NCBI GenBank assembly: GCA_963716145.1
Contig: OY970292.1
Coordinates: forward strand, 268,104-332,103
Source: Candidatus Levyibacteriota bacterium
GTDB lineage: Bacteria > Patescibacteriota > Microgenomatia > Levybacterales > UBA12049
Direction of reading: 5' to 3'
Length of the DNA stretch: 64,000 nt
How positions within the stretch are numbered: the stretch's first letter is position 1; each line of letters starts with the position of its first letter. The position numbers were made by a program, and so were the translations under genes. The notes beneath the pieces were generated by a model. That model saw nothing but the letters and a program-made list of their open reading frames with translations. It did not search any database and was not told the DNA's origin. Shown here piece by piece: positions 40,422-49,422 of the stretch.

Positions 40422-40460
40422 ACGCTTGACTCGTCAACAAAAGTTTGATATTATCAATTT

Positions 40461-40508
40461 ATGAAATCACAAATTGCATTCACATTGGCACTTCTCCTTA
40501 CCCGATAG
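40461..40508 (+). CDS. putative Leu-rich leader peptide MKSQIAFTLALLLTR
   Basis: 15 codons. Four Leu codons within LALLL (TTG GCA CTT CTC CTT). The stop lies inside hairpin 1:2 of the downstream attenuator. Confidence 0.5.
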   Translation: MKSQIAFTLALLLTR

Positions 40509-40559
40509 GGCGGGAGAAGTCGTTGTGTTGAAAATCCCGCCAACTGAGCGGGTTTTTTT
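40490..40559 (+). promoter_or_regulatory. transcription attenuator (alternative 1:2 / 2:3 / 3:4 hairpins + U7 terminator)
   Basis: Segment 1 ACTTCTCC (40490-97) pairs with GGAGAAGT (40513-20). Segment 2 GGCGGGA (40509-15) pairs with TCCCGCC (40535-41). Terminator CCCGC-caactga-GCGGG + TTTTTTT (40536-40559). The three structures are mutually exclusive. Confidence 0.6.
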
Positions 40560-40597: not shown

Positions 40598-41377
40598 ATG
40601 GGAGTTAGACAAGAAACAAACGAAAGAGGAGAAAGATTTAGAATCAAGGAAGGAGACCATACATGGCGCAGATTTGCTGCAAAAGCCATAAATGATTTGA
40701 GTCCTGATTCAGTCACTGTTAAGCGAGGAGAAAAAGGACAGCTTAGAATTGCGCACGCAGACAATAATCCTTTTGGAGCCTTTGTGCGTACAGCATATTA
40801 CCTTGATATTTCGTTGGAGGGTATTTATCCGGGTACTGGCGAGGAAGGAAGGGGATTTAACCGTGAGAGAGAGGCAGTAGTTAAAAAAATATTAGCACCA
40901 ATTTTCCGTGAGCATAGGACAAATGCAAATGAGCCTGGTAATCAAAGGGTAACGTGGCCTGATCCACAACACAATACATGGGAAAGTTTTGCAGCAACCG
41001 TAGTGAATGAAAAATATCCAAGATCAGTAACATTAACAGGGGAAAGACAATTTGGTCAATTGGGAGTCTTTGCCGCGCCAGATAGCCCATACAGGCTATT
41101 TGAAAGGACAGCGAGGTATACAGCTTCCTCGCTGGAAGATGTTATTCCAGATGCAGATAAACGTGTTGCCACAACGCAAGCCATATTAAGACCCATTTTT
41201 TCAACTCATATGGAGAAGCAAGAGGCTGAAAAAACAACGGAAATTGGCGGCGTAGTATATAGGAGAGTTACGGTCAGACCAGCAAGAGGCGCGGATTCGA
41301 TTAGGAGGGAATTGAGAATTAAACCAAAAGTGGGTAGAACAAGAGTAGAATATGTAGGAAACGGAAGAATAAGATAA
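40598..41377 (+). CDS. hypothetical Arg/Glu-rich protein with internal ~90-aa duplication
   Basis: 259 aa. Strong SD AAAGGAGGT 8 nt upstream. Repeat units end ILAPIFREH / ILRPIFSTH. GC-rich and compositionally atypical. Confidence 0.5.
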   Translation: MGVRQETNERGERFRIKEGDHTWRRFAAKAINDLSPDSVTVKRGEKGQLRIAHADNNPFGAFVRTAYYLDISLEGIYPGTGEEGRGFNREREAVVKKILAPIFREHRTNANEPGNQRVTWPDPQHNTWESFAATVVNEKYPRSVTLTGERQFGQLGVFAAPDSPYRLFERTARYTASSLEDVIPDADKRVATTQAILRPIFSTHMEKQEAEKTTEIGGVVYRRVTVRPARGADSIRRELRIKPKVGRTRVEYVGNGRIR

Positions 41378-41387
41378 ATCAATTAAT

Positions 41388-41435
41388 ATGAAAAAAGTAA
41401 TTTACAGTTTGGTAGTACTCCTCATAGCCCCTTAA
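41388..41435 (+). CDS. putative branched-chain (Val/Leu/Ile)-rich leader peptide MKKVIYSLVVLLIAP
   Basis: 15 codons, 8 of them Val/Ile/Leu. Followed by nested hairpin TGGATT..CACCC-gccaacag-GGGTG..AATCCA + T6 (41455-41498). Confidence 0.5.
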   Translation: MKKVIYSLVVLLIAP

Positions 41436-41540
41436 CGGCGGGGGTACGACGTAGTGGATTGAATCACCCGCCAACAGGGTGGGAAGAATCCATTTTTTGC
41501 AAATTGACATTCCCTAGGCCGATTTGCTATCATTCAATTA

Positions 41541-41585
41541 ATGGTAGCGCAAAAATTTATTATTGAGATTATTATTGCTCCTTAG
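41541..41585 (+). CDS. putative Ile-rich leader peptide MVAQKFIIEIIIAP
   Basis: 14 codons, five ATT Ile codons in IIEIII. The stop TAG sits in the CTCC-ttag-GGAG hairpin. Promoter-like TTGACA-18-TATCAT at 41504-41533 upstream. Confidence 0.55.
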   Translation: MVAQKFIIEIIIAP

Positions 41586-41610
41586 GGAGGGTTTCTAGGC
41601 ACGCGCTTTG

Positions 41611-41634
41611 AACCTCCCCAACGGGAGTTTTTTT
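41611..41634 (+). terminator. attenuator terminator CCTCCC-caac-GGGAG + T7
   Basis: The 5' arm is complementary to GGGAGGG (41586-41592) immediately after the leader stop, giving an antiterminator alternative. Confidence 0.6.
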
Positions 41635-41747
41635 GTATACAAAAATTATTTATAAATAGTATACAATCCGCCAAGAGTGCTCCTTGAGCCGTGTTCGAAT
41701 AGAACTGAAAAGGCGAAAGGTAAACGACGGCGGATGTGAATTTAAAT

Positions 41748-43015
41748 ATGGACAAAGTAACAGTCAAAACAATAGACGAGGCGGAAAAAGTGCTTGAAAA
41801 TGTGATACGCAAAACGCCGCTTCAGTATAACAAACGGCTTTCCGATTTATATGGGCCAAAATATACTTTAAACGCGAAGATCTGCAAGATGTCCGCTCAT
41901 ACAAAATAAGAGGCGCGTACAACCTGATGAATAGCCTAACGGCAAAAGAAAAATCAAAAGGCGTTGTGACAGCCAGCGCGGGAAACCATGCGCAGGGAGT
42001 AGCGATGAGTGCATATATTCTCAAGATAAAAGCTACAATTTTTATGCCTGTAATCACACCTCTTCAAAAAATTAATAAAGTAAAACATTTTGGAAAAGAA
42101 TGGATAACAGTAAAACTTGTGGGGCAGGTGTATGATGATGCCTCTAATGCTGCGCATCAGTATTGCGAAGAAAACAAACAAACATATGTTCACCCTTTCA
42201 ATGATCCGCGCACCATATCAGGGCAAGGGACAGTCGGAAAAGAGATTTTGGAACAACTGGAAGAAAAAAGCCTGCCAACCAAAGGAAAAGTTGATTTTGT
42301 TTTTTGCCCGATTGGCGGAGGCGGACTCATATCAGGAGCTGGCACTTACATCAAAACAAAATTCCCAGATGCAAAAATCATTGGAGTTGAGCCAAAAGGT
42401 GCTCCCGCAATGCTTGAGGCCTTCAAACAGAAAAAAGTAGTGACCCTCAAAAAGATAGACACTTTTGTCGACGGTGCAGCAATAACGACTGTTGGAGAAT
42501 TGAGCTTCAAGATTGCCTCAAAAGTCACTGACAAAATCGTGGTGAGCGATGAAGGGAAAGTCTGTGTAACTATGGTTGATCTTTACCAAAACGAGGGAAT
42601 AATCGCAGAACCCGCCGGAGCATTATCGATTTCAGCACTGGACGAATTTGCTAAAGAAATTAAAGGAAAAACTATAGTTTGTGTCTTGAGTGGGGGAAAT
42701 AATGATATTCTGCGTTATCCTGAGATAATGGAAAAGAGTCTGGTTTATAAAGGCTTGAAGCACTATTTTCTGATTGAGTTCGCTCAAAAACCCGGACAAT
42801 TAAGACAATTCCTCAATCACGCCCTGGGTCCGAGAGATGATATAGTTTTATTTGAATACATAAAAAGAAACTCCAGAGAAAAAGGACCGGCACTTATCGG
42901 GGTTGAGCTGAGTAAAAAAGAAGATCTTTCTCTTCTTCTTGACAACATGGACAAATTGCAGATACGCTATACAAAGATCACAGCAGACGACCCTCTTTAC
43001 GGGTTTGTGCTCTAA
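41748..43015 (+). CDS. ilvA: threonine dehydratase (threonine ammonia-lyase) with C-terminal regulatory domain, split by a frameshift in this assembly
   Basis: PLP motif SYKIRGAY, ASAGNHAQGVA, GGGGL. The N-terminal 53 codons are in another frame. Adding one A to the A4 run at 41858-41861 gives ...LSDLYGPKIYFKREDLQDVRSYKIRGAY... Confidence 0.85.
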
Positions 43016-43027
43016 TATTACTTCTAT

Positions 43028-43405
43028 ATGAAAATTATAAAAACAGATAATGCCCCAGCAGCAGTTGGCCCATATTCACAAGCAATTATAAGCAATGGTT
43101 TTGTTTTTTGCTCAGGTCAAATAGGACTAGATCCCAAAACAGGAGAGTTAAAGGGAGCGGATATAATTTCTCAGACAACTCAAATAATTTTTAATCTAAA
43201 ATCAGTGCTTGAGCAAGCAGGAAGTTCGCTGCAAAACGTTGTTAAAACTACTTGCTATCTAACTGATATTTCAGATTTCCAGAAATTCAATGATATTTAC
43301 GCAAAGCACTTCATATCCTCTCCTGCGCGGGCAACAGTTGAGGTATCTCATCTCCCAAAAGATGCTATAGTTGAGATCGAAGCGATCGCCGAAATCAATT
43401 CATGA
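43028..43405 (+). CDS. ridA: RidA/YjgF family enamine/imine deaminase
   Basis: 125 aa. DNAPAAVGPYSQAI...VKTTCYL...PARATVEV signature. The classic ilvA-ridA pairing. Confidence 0.9.
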   Translation: MKIIKTDNAPAAVGPYSQAIISNGFVFCSGQIGLDPKTGELKGADIISQTTQIIFNLKSVLEQAGSSLQNVVKTTCYLTDISDFQKFNDIYAKHFISSPARATVEVSHLPKDAIVEIEAIAEINS

Positions 43406-44484
43406 TCAATCAAGATAGACTGGTACAAACCTTCCTCGATCTGGTAAAGATAGACAGCCCCTCAGGTGATGAAAAAGAAATATCAAAATTTGTTGCGAAA
43501 AAATTAAAAAATTTAGGCGGAAAAGTTGTATTTGATAATTATGGAAACCTAATTGCGAAATTTGGAGGAATAGGCGAGTCCTTTATGCTCAACAGTCACT
43601 TGGATACCGTTGAGCCGGGACGCGGAATAAAACCAAAAATTCTAGGAGACAAAATAGTCTCATATGGAACGACAATACTTGGCGGGGACGCGAAAGCTGG
43701 CGTCGCGGTTATACTTGAAACGCTTGAATCGCTAAAAGAAGATCGTAGAAAGCCTGTCCCCATTGAAGTTGTACTTACGCTGGAGGAGGAGATAGGCTTG
43801 AAGGGGGCAGTAAATCTTGATTACTCCAAAATCCATTCAAAAATAGGAGTAACATTTGACGGAGATAAATCAGGCGTTGAAAATATTACTGTCTCAGCTC
43901 CGGGATATAACACAGTTGATGTTGAAATTATCGGTTGGGCTGCGCACGCCGGTTCTGAACCGGAGAAAGGAATTTCCGCAATTAAAATCGCCGCCGAAAT
44001 CATAACCCATCTTGAAGTTGGAAGGATTGATCAAGAAACTACTGCCAATGTCGGGTTGATTGAAGGAGGTAGCGCGCGAAACACAGTCCCTGAGAATGTG
44101 CATTTTAAAGCTGAGATAAGAAGCCGCAGTCTTACAAAACTTGAAAAGCATTCCATACATTTTGAACAGGTTTTCAAAATGGTTTCAGCAAAATATCCTG
44201 CAGCTAAAATTAAGTTGAATATTCAACGGGAATTTGATCCATACTTTTTTGTGGAAACTCAAGACGTGATACAGCAAATTAGCAAAGCGCTTAAAAAGAT
44301 TGGGCTGAAACCAAAACTGGGATCAGCAGGCGGGTCATCTGATGTTAATATCTTTTACGCACACGGAATAGAAGCAGTATGCGTGGGTGGCATGTATTAC
44401 AATCCGCACACAACAAGGGAATATGTTAAAATTTCAGATTTGGTAAATGGAGCCCGATTTTGCGAAGAATTGGTCCTAAATTAG
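43402..44484 (+). CDS. M20 family peptidase (peptidase T-like)
   Basis: 360 aa. HLDTV, GGDAKAG and EEEIGLKGA metal-binding motifs of M20B/PepT. Confidence 0.8.
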   Translation: MINQDRLVQTFLDLVKIDSPSGDEKEISKFVAKKLKNLGGKVVFDNYGNLIAKFGGIGESFMLNSHLDTVEPGRGIKPKILGDKIVSYGTTILGGDAKAGVAVILETLESLKEDRRKPVPIEVVLTLEEEIGLKGAVNLDYSKIHSKIGVTFDGDKSGVENITVSAPGYNTVDVEIIGWAAHAGSEPEKGISAIKIAAEIITHLEVGRIDQETTANVGLIEGGSARNTVPENVHFKAEIRSRSLTKLEKHSIHFEQVFKMVSAKYPAAKIKLNIQREFDPYFFVETQDVIQQISKALKKIGLKPKLGSAGGSSDVNIFYAHGIEAVCVGGMYYNPHTTREYVKISDLVNGARFCEELVLN

Positions 44485-44592
44485 ATTCTGTGGGCCCACG
44501 AGGAGTCGAACCTCGGTCCACCCCTGTCTCGCTTCGCTCGCAGGCGAACTCGACCTAAAGGTCTGCGTTCCTTTGCAATGTCAATGTAATTG

Positions 44593-45136: not shown

Positions 45137-46355
45137 ATGGATAAAAATCAAATTAAAAGCCACCAGCAAATTAGCCAGGAGCAGGATCTGTATGTTATGT
45201 CTGAGCTTGTTGGCTCAGGCCTGCCACTATTGACACCCAAAGGGACTGTCCTTAGAAGAACTCTTCAAGCATACATAGATAATTTGTTGGAAAAACAGGG
45301 ATACCAATTTGTAACGATTCCGCACATCGCGCGAAAAACACTTTACGAAAAATCCGGACATTTAGAAAAATTTTCCGAGGATATGTTTCCGGTTATGAAG
45401 ACAAAGGACCGCGAATATATGCTCAAACCGGCAAACTGCCCCCATCATATAGAAATTTTCGCCAGAAAACCACATTCTTACCGCGAGATGCCTCAGCGTT
45501 ACGCTGAAAGCACCACGCAATACCGATCCGAGCAGTCAGGAGAACTTGAGGGGCTCGCAAGAGTCCTGGCTTTAACACTTGATGATTCCCATGTTTTTGC
45601 CACACTTGATCAAATAAAAGATGAATTTAGAAGAGCGTTGAATATCAATAAGCAAATGCTTGAGGATTTTAAATTGAATTACTGGATTAGACTATCAGCA
45701 TGGGATCCAAAAAAGAAGACAAGGTACCTGGGTGATGAGAAGGTATGGGAGGAGATGCAGAATTTAATGGAACAGATTCTCAAGGATTCTAAAATTAATT
45801 ATAAAAAGGTTGAGGGCGAAGCCGCTTTTTACGACCAAAATGGATCTTATTACAACAGACTCAAACGGAAAAGAATGGCAGGTGTCAACAATTCAGGTGG
45901 ACTTCAATTTACCTGAAAGATTTAACATATCGTATATTGACGCAGACGGAAAAGAAAAAAGGCCTATCATGCTTCACAGGGCAACTTTTGGATCATATGA
46001 GCGTTTCCTGGCAATGATTATTGAACATTTTCAAGGTGCATTTCCCACTTGGCTTGCGCCTGTTCAGATGACGCTTCTACCAATTGCCGATAGACATATT
46101 GAATTTGCTGAGCAAGTGAATAAACAACTACTAGATGCGGGGTTCCGCTCAGAGGTTGATACGCGCTCTGAACGGCTTCAGGCCAAAATCCGAGATGCTG
46201 CTTTACAAAAAGTACCATTTATGGGTATAATAGGGGATAAAGAAATTGATACCAAAGAGGTATCTGTTAGAATGCGCGGGGGAGAAGACTTAGGTTCCCT
46301 TACAAACGAATCCCTAATTAATAAGTTACAAGAAAACATTGATAAGAAAATATAA
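45137..46355 (+). CDS. thrS: threonyl-tRNA synthetase (catalytic core + anticodon-binding domain; no N-terminal TGS/editing domains), split by a frameshift in this assembly
   Basis: Class II motifs (YMLKPANCPHH, FRRALN). The second ORF continues ...QVDFNLPERF...HRATFGSYERF...PTWLAPVQ. Frames join at the T5 run 45826-45830. Confidence 0.85.
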
Positions 46356-47445: not shown

Positions 47446-47541
47446 ATGATTAACTCAGTGAAAAACTTACAATTAAATTGGTATTACTTTTACTTTACTT
47501 CTCGCAAAAGCGGGAGGTTGAGTTATGGTTTAAATAACTAA
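47446..47541 (+). CDS. putative aromatic (Trp/Tyr/Phe)-rich leader peptide MINSVKNLQLNWYYFYFTSRKSGRLSYGLNN
   Basis: 31 codons. TGG TAT TAC TTT TAC TTT run at 47479-47496. Begins 2 nt after the rplT stop. Confidence 0.5.
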   Translation: MINSVKNLQLNWYYFYFTSRKSGRLSYGLNN

Positions 47542-47588
47542 AAAGAAATAAACCAAAACCCAATACCTCCCAAACGGGAGGTTTTTTT
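47501..47588 (+). promoter_or_regulatory. attenuator: hairpin CTCGC-aaaa-GCGGG, antiterminator GGGAGGT/ACCTCCC, terminator ACCTCCC-aaac-GGGAGGT + T7
   Basis: GGGAGG occurs at 47512-17 and 47576-82, and CCTCCC at 47566-71. Terminator U-run at 47582-47588. Confidence 0.55.
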
Positions 47589-47604
47589 ATGGGAAAAATA
47601 AAAT

Positions 47605-47991: not shown

Positions 47992-48020
47992 TTGACTAGC
48001 ATAAAAAAGTCTGATATACT
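47992..48020 (+). promoter_or_regulatory. sigma70 promoter TTGACT-17-TATACT
   Basis: TTGACT at 47992-47997 and TATACT at 48015-48020. The leader ATG is 8 nt downstream. Confidence 0.6.
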
Positions 48021-48027
48021 ATATCCA

Positions 48028-48084
48028 GATGAAGAATCTTATTAAAACAAACGCATTTTACTTTACCTTCGCTAAGCGGGGGTA
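48028..48084 (+). CDS. putative Phe/Tyr-rich leader peptide MKNLIKTNAFYFTFAKRG
   Basis: 18 codons. TTT TAC TTT ACC TTC at 48055-48069. The stop TAG (48082-84) lies inside segment 2 of the attenuator. Confidence 0.6.
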
Positions 48085-48133
48085 GGTTTTTGCGTAAAAA
48101 CAAAAATGCACCTCCGGAAACGGAGGTTTTTTT
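48058..48133 (+). promoter_or_regulatory. Phe attenuator (1:2 TACCTTCG/CGGGGGTA; 2:3 CGGGGGT/ACCTCCG; 3:4 terminator ACCTCCG-gaaa-CGGAGGT + T7)
   Basis: Mutually exclusive pairings verified by hand. U-run at 48127-48133 immediately before ATGGAAAAAATATG. Confidence 0.6.
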
Positions 48134-48144
48134 ATGGAAAAAAT

Positions 48145-49422
48145 ATGGTAAGAATAGATACATTGAGAGGAAAAGACAACCTAAGAGATCCGGAAGTACA
48201 ACCAGTGTCAACAATTGCGTACCTTAGTCCAAATGGGAATTTCACGCACGTTGCTGCTTTGGAACTACAGCGGAAACAAAGCGCATATGAAGGAGCGCTG
48301 CTCATGGGCATACCATCAATAGATGGTATGTTTGAAGCGGTTGTGTCGGGCGGAGCATCATATGCACTAGTTCCAGTTGAAAATTCAACAGATGGAGCTG
48401 TGCCTAAAACGCATAAAAATTTATATGAACGGGAGGGATTACAAATCGTTGGAGAATTCGTATTGCCAATATCGCAAACCCTTTATTATCAAAATATCGA
48501 TATGGTTAGAATTGTAGCATCCAAAGATTCGGCTCTTGGGCAGTGCAGGAAAAACATCAAACGCTTGAACGATGAAATAAATAAAAAAAGAGTAAAAGAA
48601 GGAAAAGAAAAAATTATTCTACGGCTAGAAACCATGGAAAGCACGGGCGCTGCAGTTGCTGAAGCCGCGATAAAACCCTGGATTGCAGCATTGGGAAGTT
48701 CCATTTCCGCTGAGGCACAAAAAATTACAAATCTTCATAAAGAAGATGATTTTAACGATAGGGAATCTAACGCAACTACATTTGCGCTGGTTCAGCTTGC
48801 GAGAGAGCTGCCTCCTCCGACTGGAAATGACAAAACCACATTTACAATGACAATTCCTGACACGCAAGGATCGCTTGTGCATGCTCTTGATGTCCTTGCG
48901 AGAAACAACGTTGATCTGAACAAAATCAAATCAATCGGTAAGGAGAGTGGGACTGTTACATTCTTAATGTCTGCCGACGGCCATTTACAAGATGGTATCA
49001 TGCAGGAAGCACTTATCGCATTGGAAACAGATCCTGAAAGAGACATTAAGGTAAAAAGACTAGGTTCATATGCCAAAGATGATTATACTCCGGAGGAGAG
49101 TGAAGAAACATATGATTTTGAGGCAGCCATTGAAAGAATTGATAAAGAAGCAGGGAATGGTGAAGCAATGGATGAAAATAAAATGATTGCAATCTTCACG
49201 CTAAAAGACCACCCCGGAGCACTAAGAGATGCTTTAAGACCATTTGCTAACGCAGGGGTGAATCTTACGAAAATTGACTCACAGCCAAGCGGCATACATA
49301 ATGAGCACATCTTTTATGTAGCTTTTGATAAAACTACTAAAAACCAAGAAGCTCTATTGGATGAATTAAAGAGACAATCTCATTTTCATAAGGTAATTCC
49401 CGGCGGGGGAAAGAAAAAATAA
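48145..49422 (+). CDS. pheA: prephenate dehydratase with tandem ACT-like regulatory region
   Basis: PDT domain (TIAYLSPNGNFTHVAALE, ESTGAA, NATTFALV) and ACT (PGALRDALRPFANAGVNLTKIDSQPS). Start set at 48145, because the ORF-track start 48106 would translate the terminator hairpin. Confidence 0.8.
   Translation: MVRIDTLRGKDNLRDPEVQPVSTIAYLSPNGNFTHVAALELQRKQSAYEGALLMGIPSIDGMFEAVVSGGASYALVPVENSTDGAVPKTHKNLYEREGLQIVGEFVLPISQTLYYQNIDMVRIVASKDSALGQCRKNIKRLNDEINKKRVKEGKEKIILRLETMESTGAAVAEAAIKPWIAALGSSISAEAQKITNLHKEDDFNDRESNATTFALVQLARELPPPTGNDKTTFTMTIPDTQGSLVHALDVLARNNVDLNKIKSIGKESGTVTFLMSADGHLQDGIMQEALIALETDPERDIKVKRLGSYAKDDYTPEESEETYDFEAAIERIDKEAGNGEAMDENKMIAIFTLKDHPGALRDALRPFANAGVNLTKIDSQPSGIHNEHIFYVAFDKTTKNQEALLDELKRQSHFHKVIPGGGKKK

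What the first reader, a model, noticed from the sequence alone, without database searches (positions are those of the whole stretch)
41388..41747. Tandem branched-chain (Val/Leu/Ile) and Ile-rich leader peptides with terminator hairpins upstream of ilvA-ridA-pepT
Two mini-ORFs ending ...LLIAP* and ...IIIAP*. MKKVIYSLVVLLIAP (8/15 branched-chain codons) is followed by a nested hairpin + T6. A TTGACA-18-TATCAT promoter then precedes MVAQKFIIEIIIAP (five consecutive-ish ATT Ile codons), whose stop sits in CTCC-ttag-GGAG. Next come GGGAGGG / CCTCCC / GGGAG + U7, an alternative antiterminator/terminator arrangement. Threonine dehydratase (the first Ile-pathway step, feedback-regulated by Ile) and RidA follow. 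This is the ilv attenuation logic known from enterobacteria (ilvL), appearing in a reduced genome. The 97-nt segment between the terminator and the ilvA ATG (41651-41747) is additionally closed by CCGCC...GGCGG and may be a further structured element.
Basis: partly seen in the sequence, partly recalled or inferred. Interest (0 to 1): 0.8.

Follow-up and report, generated by a model that had tools for sequence, protein, structure and literature searches.

The report
Isoleucine leader-peptide attenuator upstream of ilvA
A 14-codon, isoleucine-rich mini-gene with switchable RNA hairpins sits in front of the threonine dehydratase gene of a tiny-genome (Patescibacteria) bacterium and is conserved in its relatives, so these poorly known bacteria very probably tune amino-acid synthesis by the classical ribosome-stalling attenuation trick.

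Summary
The Ile-rich mini-ORF (41541-41585, MVAQKFIIEIIIAP) lies behind a strong promoter, 7 nt after the -10 box, so it is probably leaderless. It is followed by four mutually complementary segments and U7. The same element precedes ilvA in all nine sequenced relatives examined (IlvA 67-84% identical). Those relatives have synonymous Ile codon changes, three different stop codons at one fixed position, and a CUCC motif kept in two codon phases. Masked folding gives a terminator without translation or with the ribosome at the stop codon, and an antiterminator with the ribosome in the Ile run, in 10 of 10 sequences. I conclude it is an Ile-sensing leader-peptide transcription attenuator of ilvA-ridA-pepT-like. 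The first mini-ORF (41388-41435) is also a genuine attenuator-like element. However, it belongs to a second, Leu-rich family (a copy at 40426-40559) that normally precedes orphan small genes, so the "tandem ilvA control" reading is not supported. The 41666-41735 hairpin is conserved in three genomes, with compensatory changes, but is absent from the other relatives. A Phe/Tyr-rich leader precedes pheA 6 kb away. The mechanism is known; these are new, un-catalogued members in a new phylum. No experiment exists.

The parts
41504..41533 (+). Sigma-70-type promoter of the ilvA leader (TTGACA-18-TATCAT with TG extension)
   Evidence: One search gives an 11/12 match. A TTGAC(A/G/T)-17/18-TAT(C/T/G/A)(A/G)T promoter is conserved in all 10 orthologous loci, with the leader ATG 6-7 nt after the -10 box.
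41541..41585 (+). Leader mini-ORF MVAQKFIIEIIIAP* (5 ATT Ile codons), probably translated from a leaderless transcript
   Evidence: Orthologues: MASQQFIIEIIINS, MLSKQIIIEIIINS, MATKSIIIEIIINS, MTRQIIIIGIIIAP, MTEQSIIIKIIIAP, MPREFSIIAIIINS, MRENIDSISIIIIP, MTIKNISIKIITS, MKAKLFLNEISINS. Ile is found at position -3 in 10/10 and at -4 and -5 in 9/10. Codon usage is ATT 41, ATC 7, ATA 5. The stop is TAG, TAA or TGA at the same place. It is the only Ile-run mini-ORF among 692 in the window.
41578..41581 (+). Segment 1 (CUCC) inside the last two leader codons; it pairs with segment 2 or segment 4
   Evidence: CUCC is kept in two codon phases (GCU CCU or AAC UCC). In the free RNA it pairs with GGGAG (segment 4) in 10/10 orthologues.
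41585..41591 (+). Segment 2 (GGGAGGG), starting with the G of the stop codon; 5' arm of the antiterminator
   Evidence: It pairs with segment 3 in all 10 orthologues (dG -9 to -17 kcal/mol). Shuffles did as well in 0-6 of 300.
41613..41619 (+). Segment 3 (CCUCCCC); shared by the antiterminator (with segment 2) and the terminator (with segment 4)
41623..41634 (+). Segment 4 (GGGAG) plus U7: 3' arm and U-tract of the intrinsic terminator
   Evidence: terminator-like site 41614-41627 plus T7. The sequence is invariant in 10/10 orthologues. In L019, L164 and L172, GGGAG-U7 lies directly before the ilvA ATG at Shine-Dalgarno spacing. In L170 and L171 it precedes a 4-5 codon ORF instead.
41666..41735 (+). 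Accessory extended stem-loop (AUCCGCC...GGCGGAU) between the terminator and the ilvA start
   Evidence: Fold z = -4.6. It is shared with L163 and L171 only: 16 pairs, 3 with compensatory changes, and a non-conserved apical part. There is no other copy in the window or the fetched loci and no Rfam match.
41748..43015 (+). ilvA (threonine ammonia-lyase with one C-terminal regulatory domain); split in the window by a 1-nt homopolymer difference at 41853-41855
   Evidence: L001 carries the intact 422-aa gene.
43028..43405 (+). ridA (Rid-family enamine/imine deaminase)
43402..44484 (+). PepT-like M20 peptidase, overlapping ridA by 4 nt (same operon)
   Evidence: The gene order ilvA-ridA-M20 is conserved in L019, L162-L165 and L169-L171.
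41388..41498 (+). Element E1. It comprises mini-ORF MKKVIYSLVVLLIAP* (41388-41435), GGCGGGGG (41437-41444), CACCCGCC (41465-41472), a nested terminator and T6. It belongs to the Leu-rich leader family and has no promoter of its own; it starts 11 nt after the stop of the 259-aa ORF.
   Evidence: The orthologue in L163 is MKKVFNSLVVLLISP, which lies 6 nt after an ORF stop and upstream of a 168-aa gene.
40426..40559 (+). Element E0, a paralogue of E1. It comprises promoter TTGACT-17-TATTAT, a leaderless mini-ORF MKSQIAFTLALLLTR* (40461-40508), GGCGGGAG, CCCGCC, and GCGGG plus T7. It lies upstream of the orphan 259-aa ORF (40598-41377).
   Evidence: Orthologues lie upstream of small orphan genes in L162, L164, L165, L169, L170 and L171.

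Best explanation
The region 41504-41634 is an isoleucine-responsive, ribosome-mediated (leader-peptide) transcription attenuator of the ilvA-ridA-pepT-like operon in a Patescibacteria (Microgenomates, Levybacteria-like) genome.

**Proposed mechanism**
- Transcription starts about 7 nt after TATCAT, at or one base before the AUG of a 14-codon ORF. A 70S ribosome therefore loads on a leaderless 5' end (inferred).
- The RNA carries four segments: 1 = CUCC (last two codons), 2 = GGGAGG (abutting the stop codon), 3 = CCUCCC, and 4 = GGGAG followed by U7.
- Ile-tRNA plentiful: the ribosome runs to the stop codon and covers segment 2. Segments 3 and 4 then form the terminator and transcription ends at about 41630-41634.
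- No translation: a composite hairpin (1:4 enclosing 2:3) abuts U7 and also terminates.
- Ile-tRNA scarce: the ribosome stalls in the run of Ile codons (codons 7-12) and covers segment 1. Segments 2 and 3 pair, with an apical hairpin, and segment 4 stays single-stranded. RNA polymerase reads through into ilvA.

**Shown in silico:** conservation of the ORF, the promoter, the segments and the position-dependent folds.

**Inferred, not shown:** the transcription start, translation of the ORF, termination, and the response to Ile.

**Neighbouring elements**
- E1 (41388-41498) is a second attenuator-like element of a different, Leu-rich family. Here it acts as the terminator or attenuator at the end of the upstream 259-aa gene. 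It is not a second ilvA sensor.
- The hairpin at 41666-41735 is a lineage-specific accessory insert.
For: 1. **Conserved Ile-rich ORF.** An Ile-rich mini-ORF of 13-14 codons lies upstream of ilvA in 10 of 10 loci with IlvA 67-100% identical. One of them (L172) has a different upstream neighbour.
   - The N-terminal half is variable, but Ile is fixed at positions -3, -4, -5, -7 and -8.
   - Ile codons vary synonymously (ATT/ATC/ATA), and TAG, TAA and TGA all occur at one fixed position.
2. **Promoter geometry.** The promoter is conserved, with the ATG 6-7 nt after the -10 box in 10/10.
3. **Segment 1.** CUCC is maintained in two codon phases, Ala-Pro versus Asn-Ser.
4. **Masked folding**.
   - Free RNA: composite terminator in 10/10.
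   - Ribosome at the stop codon: 3:4 terminator in 10/10.
   - A site on the Ile codon five positions before the stop: 2:3 antiterminator in 10/10, 3:4 terminator in 0/10.
5. **Shuffle control.** The 2:3 hairpin beats dinucleotide shuffles; 0-6 of 300 shuffles did as well per sequence.
6. **Uniqueness.** It is the only Ile-run mini-ORF among 692 in the window.
7. **Matching targets.** IlvA carries the Ile-feedback regulatory domain. RidA detoxifies the enamine that IlvA releases (plus established biochemistry).
8. **Same design elsewhere, with matching amino acids.**
   - FYFTF leader before pheA at 47992-48137. Its masked folds behave classically.
   - FYFWFYF leader before pheA, and a BCAA-rich leader before an ilvA operon, in L177.
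   - WW leaders before trpB in L052 and L108.
9. **Independent assembly.** A short-read contig, L001, is identical across the region.
Against: - There are no transcriptomic, ribosome-profiling or genetic data for this organism.
- The key segments (CUCC, GGAGG, CCUCC, GGGAG) are invariant among the orthologues, so there is no column-wise covariation for the decisive pairings. RNAalifold found only 2 compensatory pairs, in a partial 1:2 helix.
- The ten sequences are related, so the per-sequence shuffle tests are not independent.
- One orthologue (L164, MKAKLFLNEISINS) keeps only 2 Ile.
- With a 13-nt downstream footprint, a stall on the last Ile codon of the window's leader would already mask segment 2. 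Only stalls at codons 7-11 would then give read-through.
- The 97-nt element alone does not fold unusually well (z = -1.1).
- ilvA in the window has no Shine-Dalgarno sequence near its AUG. It sits 113 nt from the terminator.
- No other ilv or leu genes lie in this 64-kb window, so whether the Ile pathway is complete is unknown.
Confidence: 0.8

Rival explanations
1. The control is mainly translational. The 3:4 hairpin hides a Shine-Dalgarno sequence (GGGAG), and ribosome stalling in the leader frees it, without regulated transcription termination.
For: In L019, L164 and L172, GGGAG-U7(-11) lies directly before the ilvA AUG at Shine-Dalgarno spacing. E3, E4 and L177 show GGAGG-U7-AUG as well.
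Against: In the window, L163, L171, L162, L169 and L165, between 70 and 150 nt of inserted sequence separate GGGAG from the ilvA AUG. There the hairpin cannot occlude ilvA's initiation site. An uninterrupted U7 tract is invariant in 10/10, which points to intrinsic termination. The two modes may coexist in relatives that lack the insert.
Confidence: 0.1
2. The mini-ORFs encode stand-alone small hydrophobic peptides (for example membrane peptides or toxins) with their own promoter and terminator, unrelated to ilvA regulation.
For: The peptides are short and hydrophobic, and each has a promoter and a terminator.
Against: Only the Ile run and the RNA motif are conserved. The C-terminus switches between Ala-Pro and Asn-Ser while keeping CUCC. 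The element is always immediately upstream of ilvA, even where the upstream neighbour differs (L172). Analogous leaders match the amino acid of their downstream gene: Phe/Tyr with pheA, Trp with trpB.
Confidence: 0.04
3. E1 and E2 act together as a true tandem attenuator, so that ilvA responds to Leu/Val (E1) and to Ile (E2).
For: E1 is a well-formed attenuator-like element 6 nt upstream of the E2 promoter. Read-through from the 259-aa gene would enter the ilvA leader.
Against: E1 has no promoter of its own. Its family (E0/E1) precedes orphan small genes in seven relatives. Its L163 orthologue is separated from the ilvA leader by a 168-aa gene. On a read-through transcript the E2 AUG would be internal and lack a Shine-Dalgarno sequence, so E2 would default to its terminator fold (free RNA). 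None of the nine relatives has E1 adjacent to E2.
Confidence: 0.08
4. The region is a ligand-, tRNA- or protein-binding leader RNA (riboswitch, T-box, or a protein-mediated attenuator), and the ORFs are incidental.
For: Many Firmicutes control ilv-leu genes through T-boxes (established knowledge). The hairpin at 41666-41735 is structured and conserved in three genomes.
Against: There is no Rfam match even at E <= 10. The leader is only about 94 nt and has no conserved unpaired nucleotides apart from the four complementary segments. The reading frame, stop position and Ile codons are conserved. The apical part of the 41666-41735 hairpin is replaced in L163, and the element is absent in most relatives.
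Confidence: 0.03

Closest known systems
Corynebacterium glutamicum ilvBNC attenuator (leader peptide IlvL, MTIIRLVVVTARRLP)
   Same: It has a short (15-aa) leader peptide rich in branched-chain codons. Transcription starts one nucleotide from the leader start codon, and there is no ribosome-binding site. Terminator, antiterminator and anti-antiterminator hairpins are present. Attenuation is translation-dependent (PMC11857589, citing Morbach et al. 2000).
   Different: There is no sequence homology. The Corynebacterium leader region is 292 nt, mixes Ile, Val and Leu codons, and controls acetohydroxyacid synthase and isomeroreductase. The element here is about 94 nt from start to U-tract, senses essentially Ile alone, controls ilvA-ridA, and has four mutually complementary segments. 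It is found in Patescibacteria, not Actinobacteria.
Enterobacterial ilvGMEDA leader (ilvL) and ilvBN leader (ivbL)
   Same: They share the logic: regulatory Ile/Val/Leu codons in a leader ORF, alternative 1:2, 2:3 and 3:4 pairings, an intrinsic terminator, and ilvA among the regulated genes (textbook knowledge; not tested here).
   Different: The enterobacterial leaders have Shine-Dalgarno-dependent 32-aa peptides and multivalent control by three amino acids. Here the ORF is 14 codons, apparently leaderless and Ile-specific. No homology was detected, and no Rfam family matched.
E. coli pheA leader (pheL) and pheST leader (pheM, located just after rplT)
   Same: The window has an FYFTF leader with a classical 1:2, 2:3, 3:4 design before pheA (47992-48137). 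It also has a WYYFYF mini-ORF directly after rplT in the order thrS-infC-rplT-[leader]-...-pheA-pheS-pheT.
   Different: These are neighbours of the finding, not the finding itself. The alternative pairing for the post-rplT element was not reproduced in masked folds. The comparison with E. coli rests on my own knowledge of that operon.
T-box riboswitches controlling ilv-leu and aminoacyl-tRNA synthetase genes in Firmicutes
   Same: The purpose is the same: sensing uncharged or charged tRNA supply to switch a terminator or antiterminator upstream of amino-acid genes.
   Different: A T-box is a tRNA-binding RNA of about 200 nt without a leader ORF. No T-box match was found here.

Membership tests
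Ribosome-mediated (leader-peptide) transcription attenuators | Short ORF upstream of a biosynthetic operon, enriched in codons of the amino acid made by that pathway | tested here: met
   There are 5 Ile in 14 codons, and 5-7 Ile in 8 of 9 orthologues. It is unique among 692 mini-ORFs. The downstream gene is ilvA.
Ribosome-mediated (leader-peptide) transcription attenuators | Intrinsic terminator (G+C-rich hairpin plus U-tract) between the leader ORF and the first structural gene | tested here: met
   CUCCC-caac-GGGAG plus U7 at 41614-41634; invariant in 10/10 orthologues. Termination itself was not measured.
Ribosome-mediated (leader-peptide) transcription attenuators | Mutually exclusive antiterminator that uses the 5' arm of the terminator | tested here: met
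   The 2:3 hairpin forms in 10/10 orthologues and is better than shuffles, which did as well in 0-6 of 300. Covariation is uninformative because the arms are invariant.
Ribosome-mediated (leader-peptide) transcription attenuators | Geometry in which ribosome position selects the fold: a stall at the regulatory codons frees segment 2, while a ribosome at the stop codon masks it | tested here: met
   Segment 2 starts 0-6 nt after the stop codon in all orthologues. Masked folds switch as predicted, assuming a 13-nt footprint.
Ribosome-mediated (leader-peptide) transcription attenuators | The leader ORF is translated | not testable with these tools
   Only indirect evidence is available: the frame, length and stop position are conserved, Ile codons change synonymously, and the AUG lies 6-7 nt after the -10 box, which fits leaderless initiation.
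Ribosome-mediated (leader-peptide) transcription attenuators | Read-through rises when the cognate aminoacyl-tRNA is limiting | not testable with these tools
   This needs term-seq, reporter or in vitro coupled assays.
Curated RNA leader families in Rfam (Leu, His, Thr and Trp leaders, T-box and others) | Significant match to the family covariance model | tested here: not met
   No match in 41000-42000 even at E <= 10, apart from a spurious U7 snRNA hit. No gathering-score hit other than tRNAs in the whole window.
Leu-rich leader family E0/E1 of these genomes (defined here) | A roughly 15-codon ORF MK..(L/V).LL..; stop codon next to GGCGGG; then CCCGCC; then GCGGG plus a U-tract | tested here: met
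   The window's E1 aligns with E0 and seven relatives at 68% mean column identity, and each forms 1:2 plus 3:4 hairpins. The column-wise covariation test was negative: 0 compensatory pairs and 74.9% paired, against 75.7% in shuffles.

The most novel reading that the evidence does not exclude
Microgenomates-type Patescibacteria may carry a previously undescribed, lineage-wide set of ultra-compact, leaderless leader-peptide attenuators. Classes seen here are Ile (ilvA), Phe/Tyr (pheA), Trp (trpB) and a Leu-type class.

In this set the terminator's 3' arm doubles as the Shine-Dalgarno sequence of the regulated gene. The Leu-type class (E0/E1) wires an amino-acid starvation signal to fast-evolving orphan small proteins, not to biosynthetic enzymes.

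The conserved hairpin between the terminator and ilvA could be a further, unknown regulatory RNA.
Probability: 0.3. Interest if true: 0.7.

Novelty: new member of a known kind. Interest (0 to 1): 0.5.

Why it matters
Patescibacteria (the candidate phyla radiation) are mostly uncultured, have about 1-Mb genomes and are usually described as metabolically dependent on hosts. Almost nothing is known about how they regulate genes.

A conserved Ile-sensing attenuator before ilvA, with sister elements for aromatic amino acids and Trp, implies three things:
- These organisms make at least some amino acids and adjust that synthesis to tRNA charging.
- Transcription and translation are coupled in them.
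- Leaderless initiation is used for regulatory ORFs.

The elements are small, clear-cut and absent from Rfam. They could seed covariance models for annotating such genomes, and they offer simple constructs for in vitro tests of gene regulation in this group. A full-text search found no paper linking leader-peptide attenuation with Patescibacteria or the candidate phyla radiation.

Tried and rejected
- **Rfam scans** of the window, of the region at E <= 10, and of five related loci gave nothing but tRNAs. My suspicion of a T-box upstream of trpE in L174 was not confirmed.
The genome scan gave only five Patescibacteria loci. The useful relatives came from exact-protein contig look-ups.
- **More distant Patescibacteria lack this leader.**
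  - In L002, L003, L010 and L082, ilvA lies inside ilvBN or ilvC operons.
  - In L083 and L084, ilvA itself looks leaderless.
  - L174 has ridA-ilvA with a short intergenic region.
- **Covariation.** RNAalifold on the MAFFT alignment of ten ilvA leaders recovered only the invariant terminator and a partial 1:2 helix. The column-wise test on the E0/E1 alignment was negative. My first impression of compensatory changes between E0 and E1 turned out to be a register shift, so I dropped it. I did not build a covariance model, because the decisive segments never vary.
- **The 259-aa upstream protein.** It has no Pfam or NCBIfam hit and no homologue outside its own genome, so it gives no clue to the role of E1.
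- **Mobile-element test for 41635-41747.** No second copy was found in the window or in 1.17 Mb of fetched loci. L162 and L169 carry a different, repeated hairpin insert at the same place.
- **Coding potential of the 41666-41735 hairpin.** Rejected: the reading frame is not conserved between the window and L163.
- **Other ilv or leu genes.** None were found in the window.
- **The post-rplT element (E3).** Masked folds did not show the expected antiterminator.
Full report
**1. What is in the sequence**

- After the stop codon of a 259-aa ORF (40598-41377) comes mini-ORF 1 (41388-41435, MKKVIYSLVVLLIAP*).
- It is followed by GGCGGGGG (41437-41444) and CACCCGCC (41465-41472).
- Next is a nested hairpin (TGGATT...AATCCA around CACCC...GGGTG) and T6 (41493-41498).
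- Six bases later lies one of the best promoter matches in this 9-kb stretch: TTGACA-18-TATCAT, 41504-41533, 11/12 with a TG extension.
- Seven bases after the -10 box starts mini-ORF 2 (41541-41585, MVAQKFIIEIIIAP*; ATT ATT GAG ATT ATT ATT).
- The following segments are:
  - CTCC (41578-41581, inside the last two codons);
  - GGGAGGG (41585-41591, beginning with the G of TAG);
  - CCTCCCC (41613-41619);
  - GGGAG (41623-41627) with T7 (41628-41634).
- A long hairpin closed by ATCCGCC and GGCGGAT (41666-41735) follows. The ilvA ATG is at 41748.
- Downstream are ilvA, ridA and a PepT-like M20 peptidase, in one tightly packed unit.
  - IlvA matches the NCBIfam equivalog NF006390 at 611 bits, and carries one Thr_dehydrat_C regulatory domain.
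  - RidA matches TIGR00004.
  - The peptidase matches TIGR01883, just at its cutoff.
- No Rfam family matches the region, even at E <= 10.

**2. Source and sequence quality**

The neighbouring genes are trigger factor, DUF5660 and DUF5665. The best IlvA relatives are labelled Levybacteria or Levyibacteriota, Roizmanbacteria and other Patescibacteria. The genome's own contig is 1.14 Mb (P0001). "Reduced genome" is therefore right.

In the window ilvA is split. A 5.8-kb contig from an independent short-read assembly (L001) is identical except for GGGG instead of GGG at 41853-41855, and it encodes an intact 422-aa IlvA. thrS (45137-46355) is split in a similar way near short G and A runs. These look like homopolymer under-calls, not pseudogenes. 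L001 also independently confirms every base of the leader region.

**3. The Ile leader is conserved**

I fetched the DNA around nine IlvA homologues that are 67-84% identical: L019, L162, L163, L164, L165, L169, L170, L171 and L172. All nine share the same layout:
- a TTGACx-17/18-TATxxT promoter;
- an ATG 6-7 nt after the -10 box;
- an ORF of 13-14 codons;
- a stop codon followed within 0-6 nt by a GGAG(G)-type segment;
- a variable hairpin;
- CCUCC(C), a 3-6 nt loop, GGGAG and U7.

The nine peptides are MASQQFIIEIIINS, MLSKQIIIEIIINS, MATKSIIIEIIINS, MTRQIIIIGIIIAP, MTEQSIIIKIIIAP, MPREFSIIAIIINS, MRENIDSISIIIIP, MTIKNISIKIITS and MKAKLFLNEISINS.

Counted back from the stop codon:
- Ile occupies position -3 in 10/10 sequences, positions -4 and -5 in 9/10, and positions -7 and -8 in 8/10.
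- Codons 2-6 vary freely.
- The 53 Ile codons are ATT 41, ATC 7 and ATA 5.
- The stop is TAG, TAA or TGA, always at the same place.

This is the signature of a translated frame that is selected for its Ile codons and not for a peptide sequence.

L172 has a different upstream neighbour (DUF1361), so the element travels with ilvA. In the window itself, only this one of 692 ATG mini-ORFs has at least 5 Ile in 7 codons, against a proteome Ile frequency of 8.0%.

**4. RNA logic**

The last two codons are either GCU CCU (Ala-Pro) or AAC UCC (Asn-Ser). Both keep CUCC, but in different codon phases.

Segments 1 and 3 are alike, and segments 2 and 4 are alike. Pairings 1:2, 2:3, 3:4 and 1:4 are therefore all possible.

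I ran constraint folding on all ten sequences, assuming the ribosome protects 13 nt from the first base of the A-site codon:
- Free RNA: a composite hairpin (1:4 enclosing 2:3) that abuts U7, in 10/10.
- Ribosome at the stop codon: segment 2 masked and the 3:4 terminator formed, in 10/10.
- A site on the Ile codon five positions before the stop: 2:3 formed in 10/10 and the 3:4 terminator in 0/10. Segment 4 is then free, or holds at most 3-4 weak pairs.

The 2:3 hairpin that captures the terminator's 5' arm has dG -9 to -17 kcal/mol. It is matched by only 0-6 of 300 dinucleotide shuffles per sequence. The sequences are related, so these tests are not independent.

Limits of the RNA evidence:
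- The four segments never vary, so column-wise covariation is uninformative. RNAalifold found only the invariant terminator and a partial 1:2 helix with 2 compensatory pairs.
- In the window, a stall on the very last Ile codon would already mask segment 2.
- The 97-nt element as a whole does not fold unusually well (z = -1.1). Its 63-nt core gives z = -2.8.

**5. Mechanism proposed**

This is a classical leader-peptide attenuator in compact form. It spans about 94 nt from the start codon to the end of the U-tract, and its leader ORF is probably leaderless.
- Plentiful Ile-tRNA, or no translation at all, leads to termination at about 41630.
- A stall in the Ile run leads to the antiterminator and to read-through into ilvA-ridA-pepT-like.

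The targets fit. IlvA is the Ile-committed, Ile-inhibited enzyme, and RidA removes the reactive enamine it releases (established biochemistry).

In L019, L164 and L172 the ilvA AUG follows GGGAG-U7 at Shine-Dalgarno spacing. In those genomes the terminator hairpin may also hide the ribosome-binding site. In L170 and L171 a 4-5 codon ORF occupies that place. In the window a 113-nt insert separates the two, so only termination can act there.

**6. The first mini-ORF (E1)**

E1 is not a second ilvA leader. A paralogue, E0 (40426-40559), lies upstream of the 259-aa ORF. It consists of:
- the promoter TTGACT-17-TATTAT;
- an ATG 6 nt later;
- the ORF MKSQIAFTLALLLTR*;
- GGCGGGAG, CCCGCC, and GCGGG plus T7.

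E0-type elements precede small hypothetical genes in six relatives:
- L170: MKSQIAYTLSLLLNP
- L162: MKSQKSITLVLLLNP
- L164: MKSQKFVTLSLLLNP
- L171: MKIQRVNTLSLLLTC
- L165: MKTRILINLSLLLNLA
- L169: MSKSLNLCYVILMTP

E1's orthologue in L163 (MKKVFNSLVVLLISP) starts 6 nt after an ORF stop and is followed by a 168-aa gene. That gene lies before the ilvA leader.

E0 and E1 align at 68% mean column identity. Each folds into a 1:2 hairpin containing the Leu/Val codons, plus a 3:4 terminator. A formal pair count found no compensatory changes, because the 1:2 helices use different registers.

The regulated genes are fast-evolving orphans. The 259-aa protein has no homologue outside its own genome, and the relatives' proteins resemble it only weakly.

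In the window, E1 lacks a promoter and most likely serves as the terminator or attenuator at the end of the 259-aa gene. It may be a remnant of a leader whose downstream gene was lost. On a read-through transcript the E2 AUG would be internal and lack a Shine-Dalgarno sequence, so E2 should default to termination.

**7. The third element**

The hairpin at 41666-41735 folds far better than shuffles (z = -4.6). It is shared with L163 and L171. The consensus has 16 pairs, 3 of them with compensatory double changes and none broken in the basal stems. The apical part is replaced in L163.

It is absent in L019, L164, L170 and L172. L162 and L169 carry a different, repeated hairpin insert at the same site, and L165 has a shorter stem-loop containing a true GGAGG.

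It has no second copy in the window, no conserved reading frame and no Rfam match. I regard it as a lineage-specific structured insert, not a sensor. Its 3' arm (GGCGGA, 12 nt before the AUG) is the only Shine-Dalgarno-like sequence left for ilvA.

**8. Context**

The same design occurs elsewhere:
- At 47992-48137: promoter, leaderless ORF MKNLIKTNAFYFTFAKRG*, then 1:2, 2:3 and 3:4 segments, and CGGAGG plus U7 before pheA. Its masked folds switch classically.
- At 47446-47541: a WYYFYF mini-ORF starts 2 nt after rplT. Its alternative fold was not reproduced.
- In L177 (Gottesmanbacteria): an FYFWFYF leader precedes pheA, and a Leu/Ile/Val-rich leader precedes an ilvA operon.
- In L052 and L108: leaderless WW leaders precede trpB. 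L075 (Shapirobacteria) and L115 carry single-Trp leaders.

Attenuation by leader peptides therefore seems common in these lineages.

**9. Comparison with the known**

The mechanism is the textbook one.

The closest described case is the C. glutamicum ilvBNC attenuator. Its 15-aa leader is translated without a ribosome-binding site, from a transcript that starts one base before the start codon (PMC11857589). Leader peptides for trpE, leuA, ilvB and aroF in that organism are noted in PMC3890552.

Attenuation is documented mainly in Proteobacteria and Actinobacteria (PMC4833913).

Full-text searches found no paper combining leader peptide or attenuation with Patescibacteria, candidate phyla radiation or Microgenomates.

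I file the finding as a new, un-catalogued member of a known kind.

**10. Verdict**

It is corrected for the first mini-ORF and for the downstream hairpin.
- Interest is moderate. The principle is not new. It is a clean, testable regulatory element, with sister elements, in a phylum whose gene regulation is essentially unknown.

Noticed in passing
window 41853-41855 (ilvA) and 45828-45845 (thrS): ilvA is split by GGG, where an otherwise identical short-read contig (L001) has GGGG. thrS is split into two ORFs (45137-45916 and 45810-46355) near short G and A runs. This looks like homopolymer under-calling in the assembly and not like pseudogenes.
   Followed up: partly
window 40426-40559: A third attenuator-like element (E0): a promoter, a leaderless ORF MKSQIAFTLALLLTR*, and GGCGGG/CCCGCC/GCGGG plus T7. 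It lies upstream of an orphan 259-aa ORF (40598-41377) and is conserved upstream of orphan small genes in six relatives. Why a Leu-type leader should control such genes is unexplained.
   Followed up: partly
window 47992-48137: A Phe/Tyr-rich leaderless leader (MKNLIKTNAFYFTFAKRG*) with classical 1:2, 2:3 and 3:4 segments and CGGAGG plus U7, upstream of prephenate dehydratase (48145-49422). Masked folds switch as expected. An FYFWFYF leader precedes pheA in L177 (4130-4290).
   Followed up: partly
window 47446-47590: A mini-ORF with WYYFYF starts 2 nt after the rplT stop and is followed by CCTCCC-aaac-GGGAGG plus T7. The gene order thrS-infC-rplT-[leader]-...-pheA-pheS-pheT recalls the position of E. 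coli pheM. The alternative pairing was not reproduced in folds.
   Followed up: partly
window 48127-48150; L170 2474-2500; L171 2347-2361; L177 1843-1851: After several of these terminators, the 3' arm (GGAGG-like) plus U7 is followed by an ATG that opens a 2-5 codon ORF. One example is MEKIW*, whose stop overlaps the pheA ATG as ATGGTAA. This suggests the terminator arm doubles as a Shine-Dalgarno sequence, with translational coupling into the structural gene.
   Followed up: no
L162 2386-2500; L169 700-790 and 2083-2108; L170 3809-3831; L019 1259-1279: Small repeated hairpin or palindrome elements (GTCATTCCC...GGGAATGAC, ATTCCCGCCTACGCGGGAAT, CCTGCCTGCCGGCAGGCAGG) are inserted between the ilvA attenuator and ilvA, and also at other intergenic sites. 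They look like REP- or MITE-like repeats.
   Followed up: partly
L052 3541-3845; L108 1807-2309; L075 3644-3848; L115 1472-1647: Leaderless mini-ORFs containing Trp codons, followed by terminators, lie upstream of trpB-like genes. The peptides are MVKKVNYMNAAWWTTHICG, MNNLTIKLNLNWWATCNSRR, MTLKISTLSWRNLVAQLGDVFMA and MFTIKLSFSWRNLVAQLGDVLMA. No Rfam family matches them.
   Followed up: partly
L083 1985-2045; L084 2445-2505: In more distant Patescibacteria, ilvA itself appears to be leaderless: a TTGACT ... TATTAT promoter with the ATG 5 nt later, and no attenuator.
   Followed up: no
window 44484-44515, minus strand: A sequence resembling the T-arm and 3' acceptor strand of a tRNA (GTGGACCGAGGTTCGACTCCTCGTGGGCCCA) lies next to tRNA-Val. 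Neither ARAGORN nor Rfam calls it.
   Followed up: no
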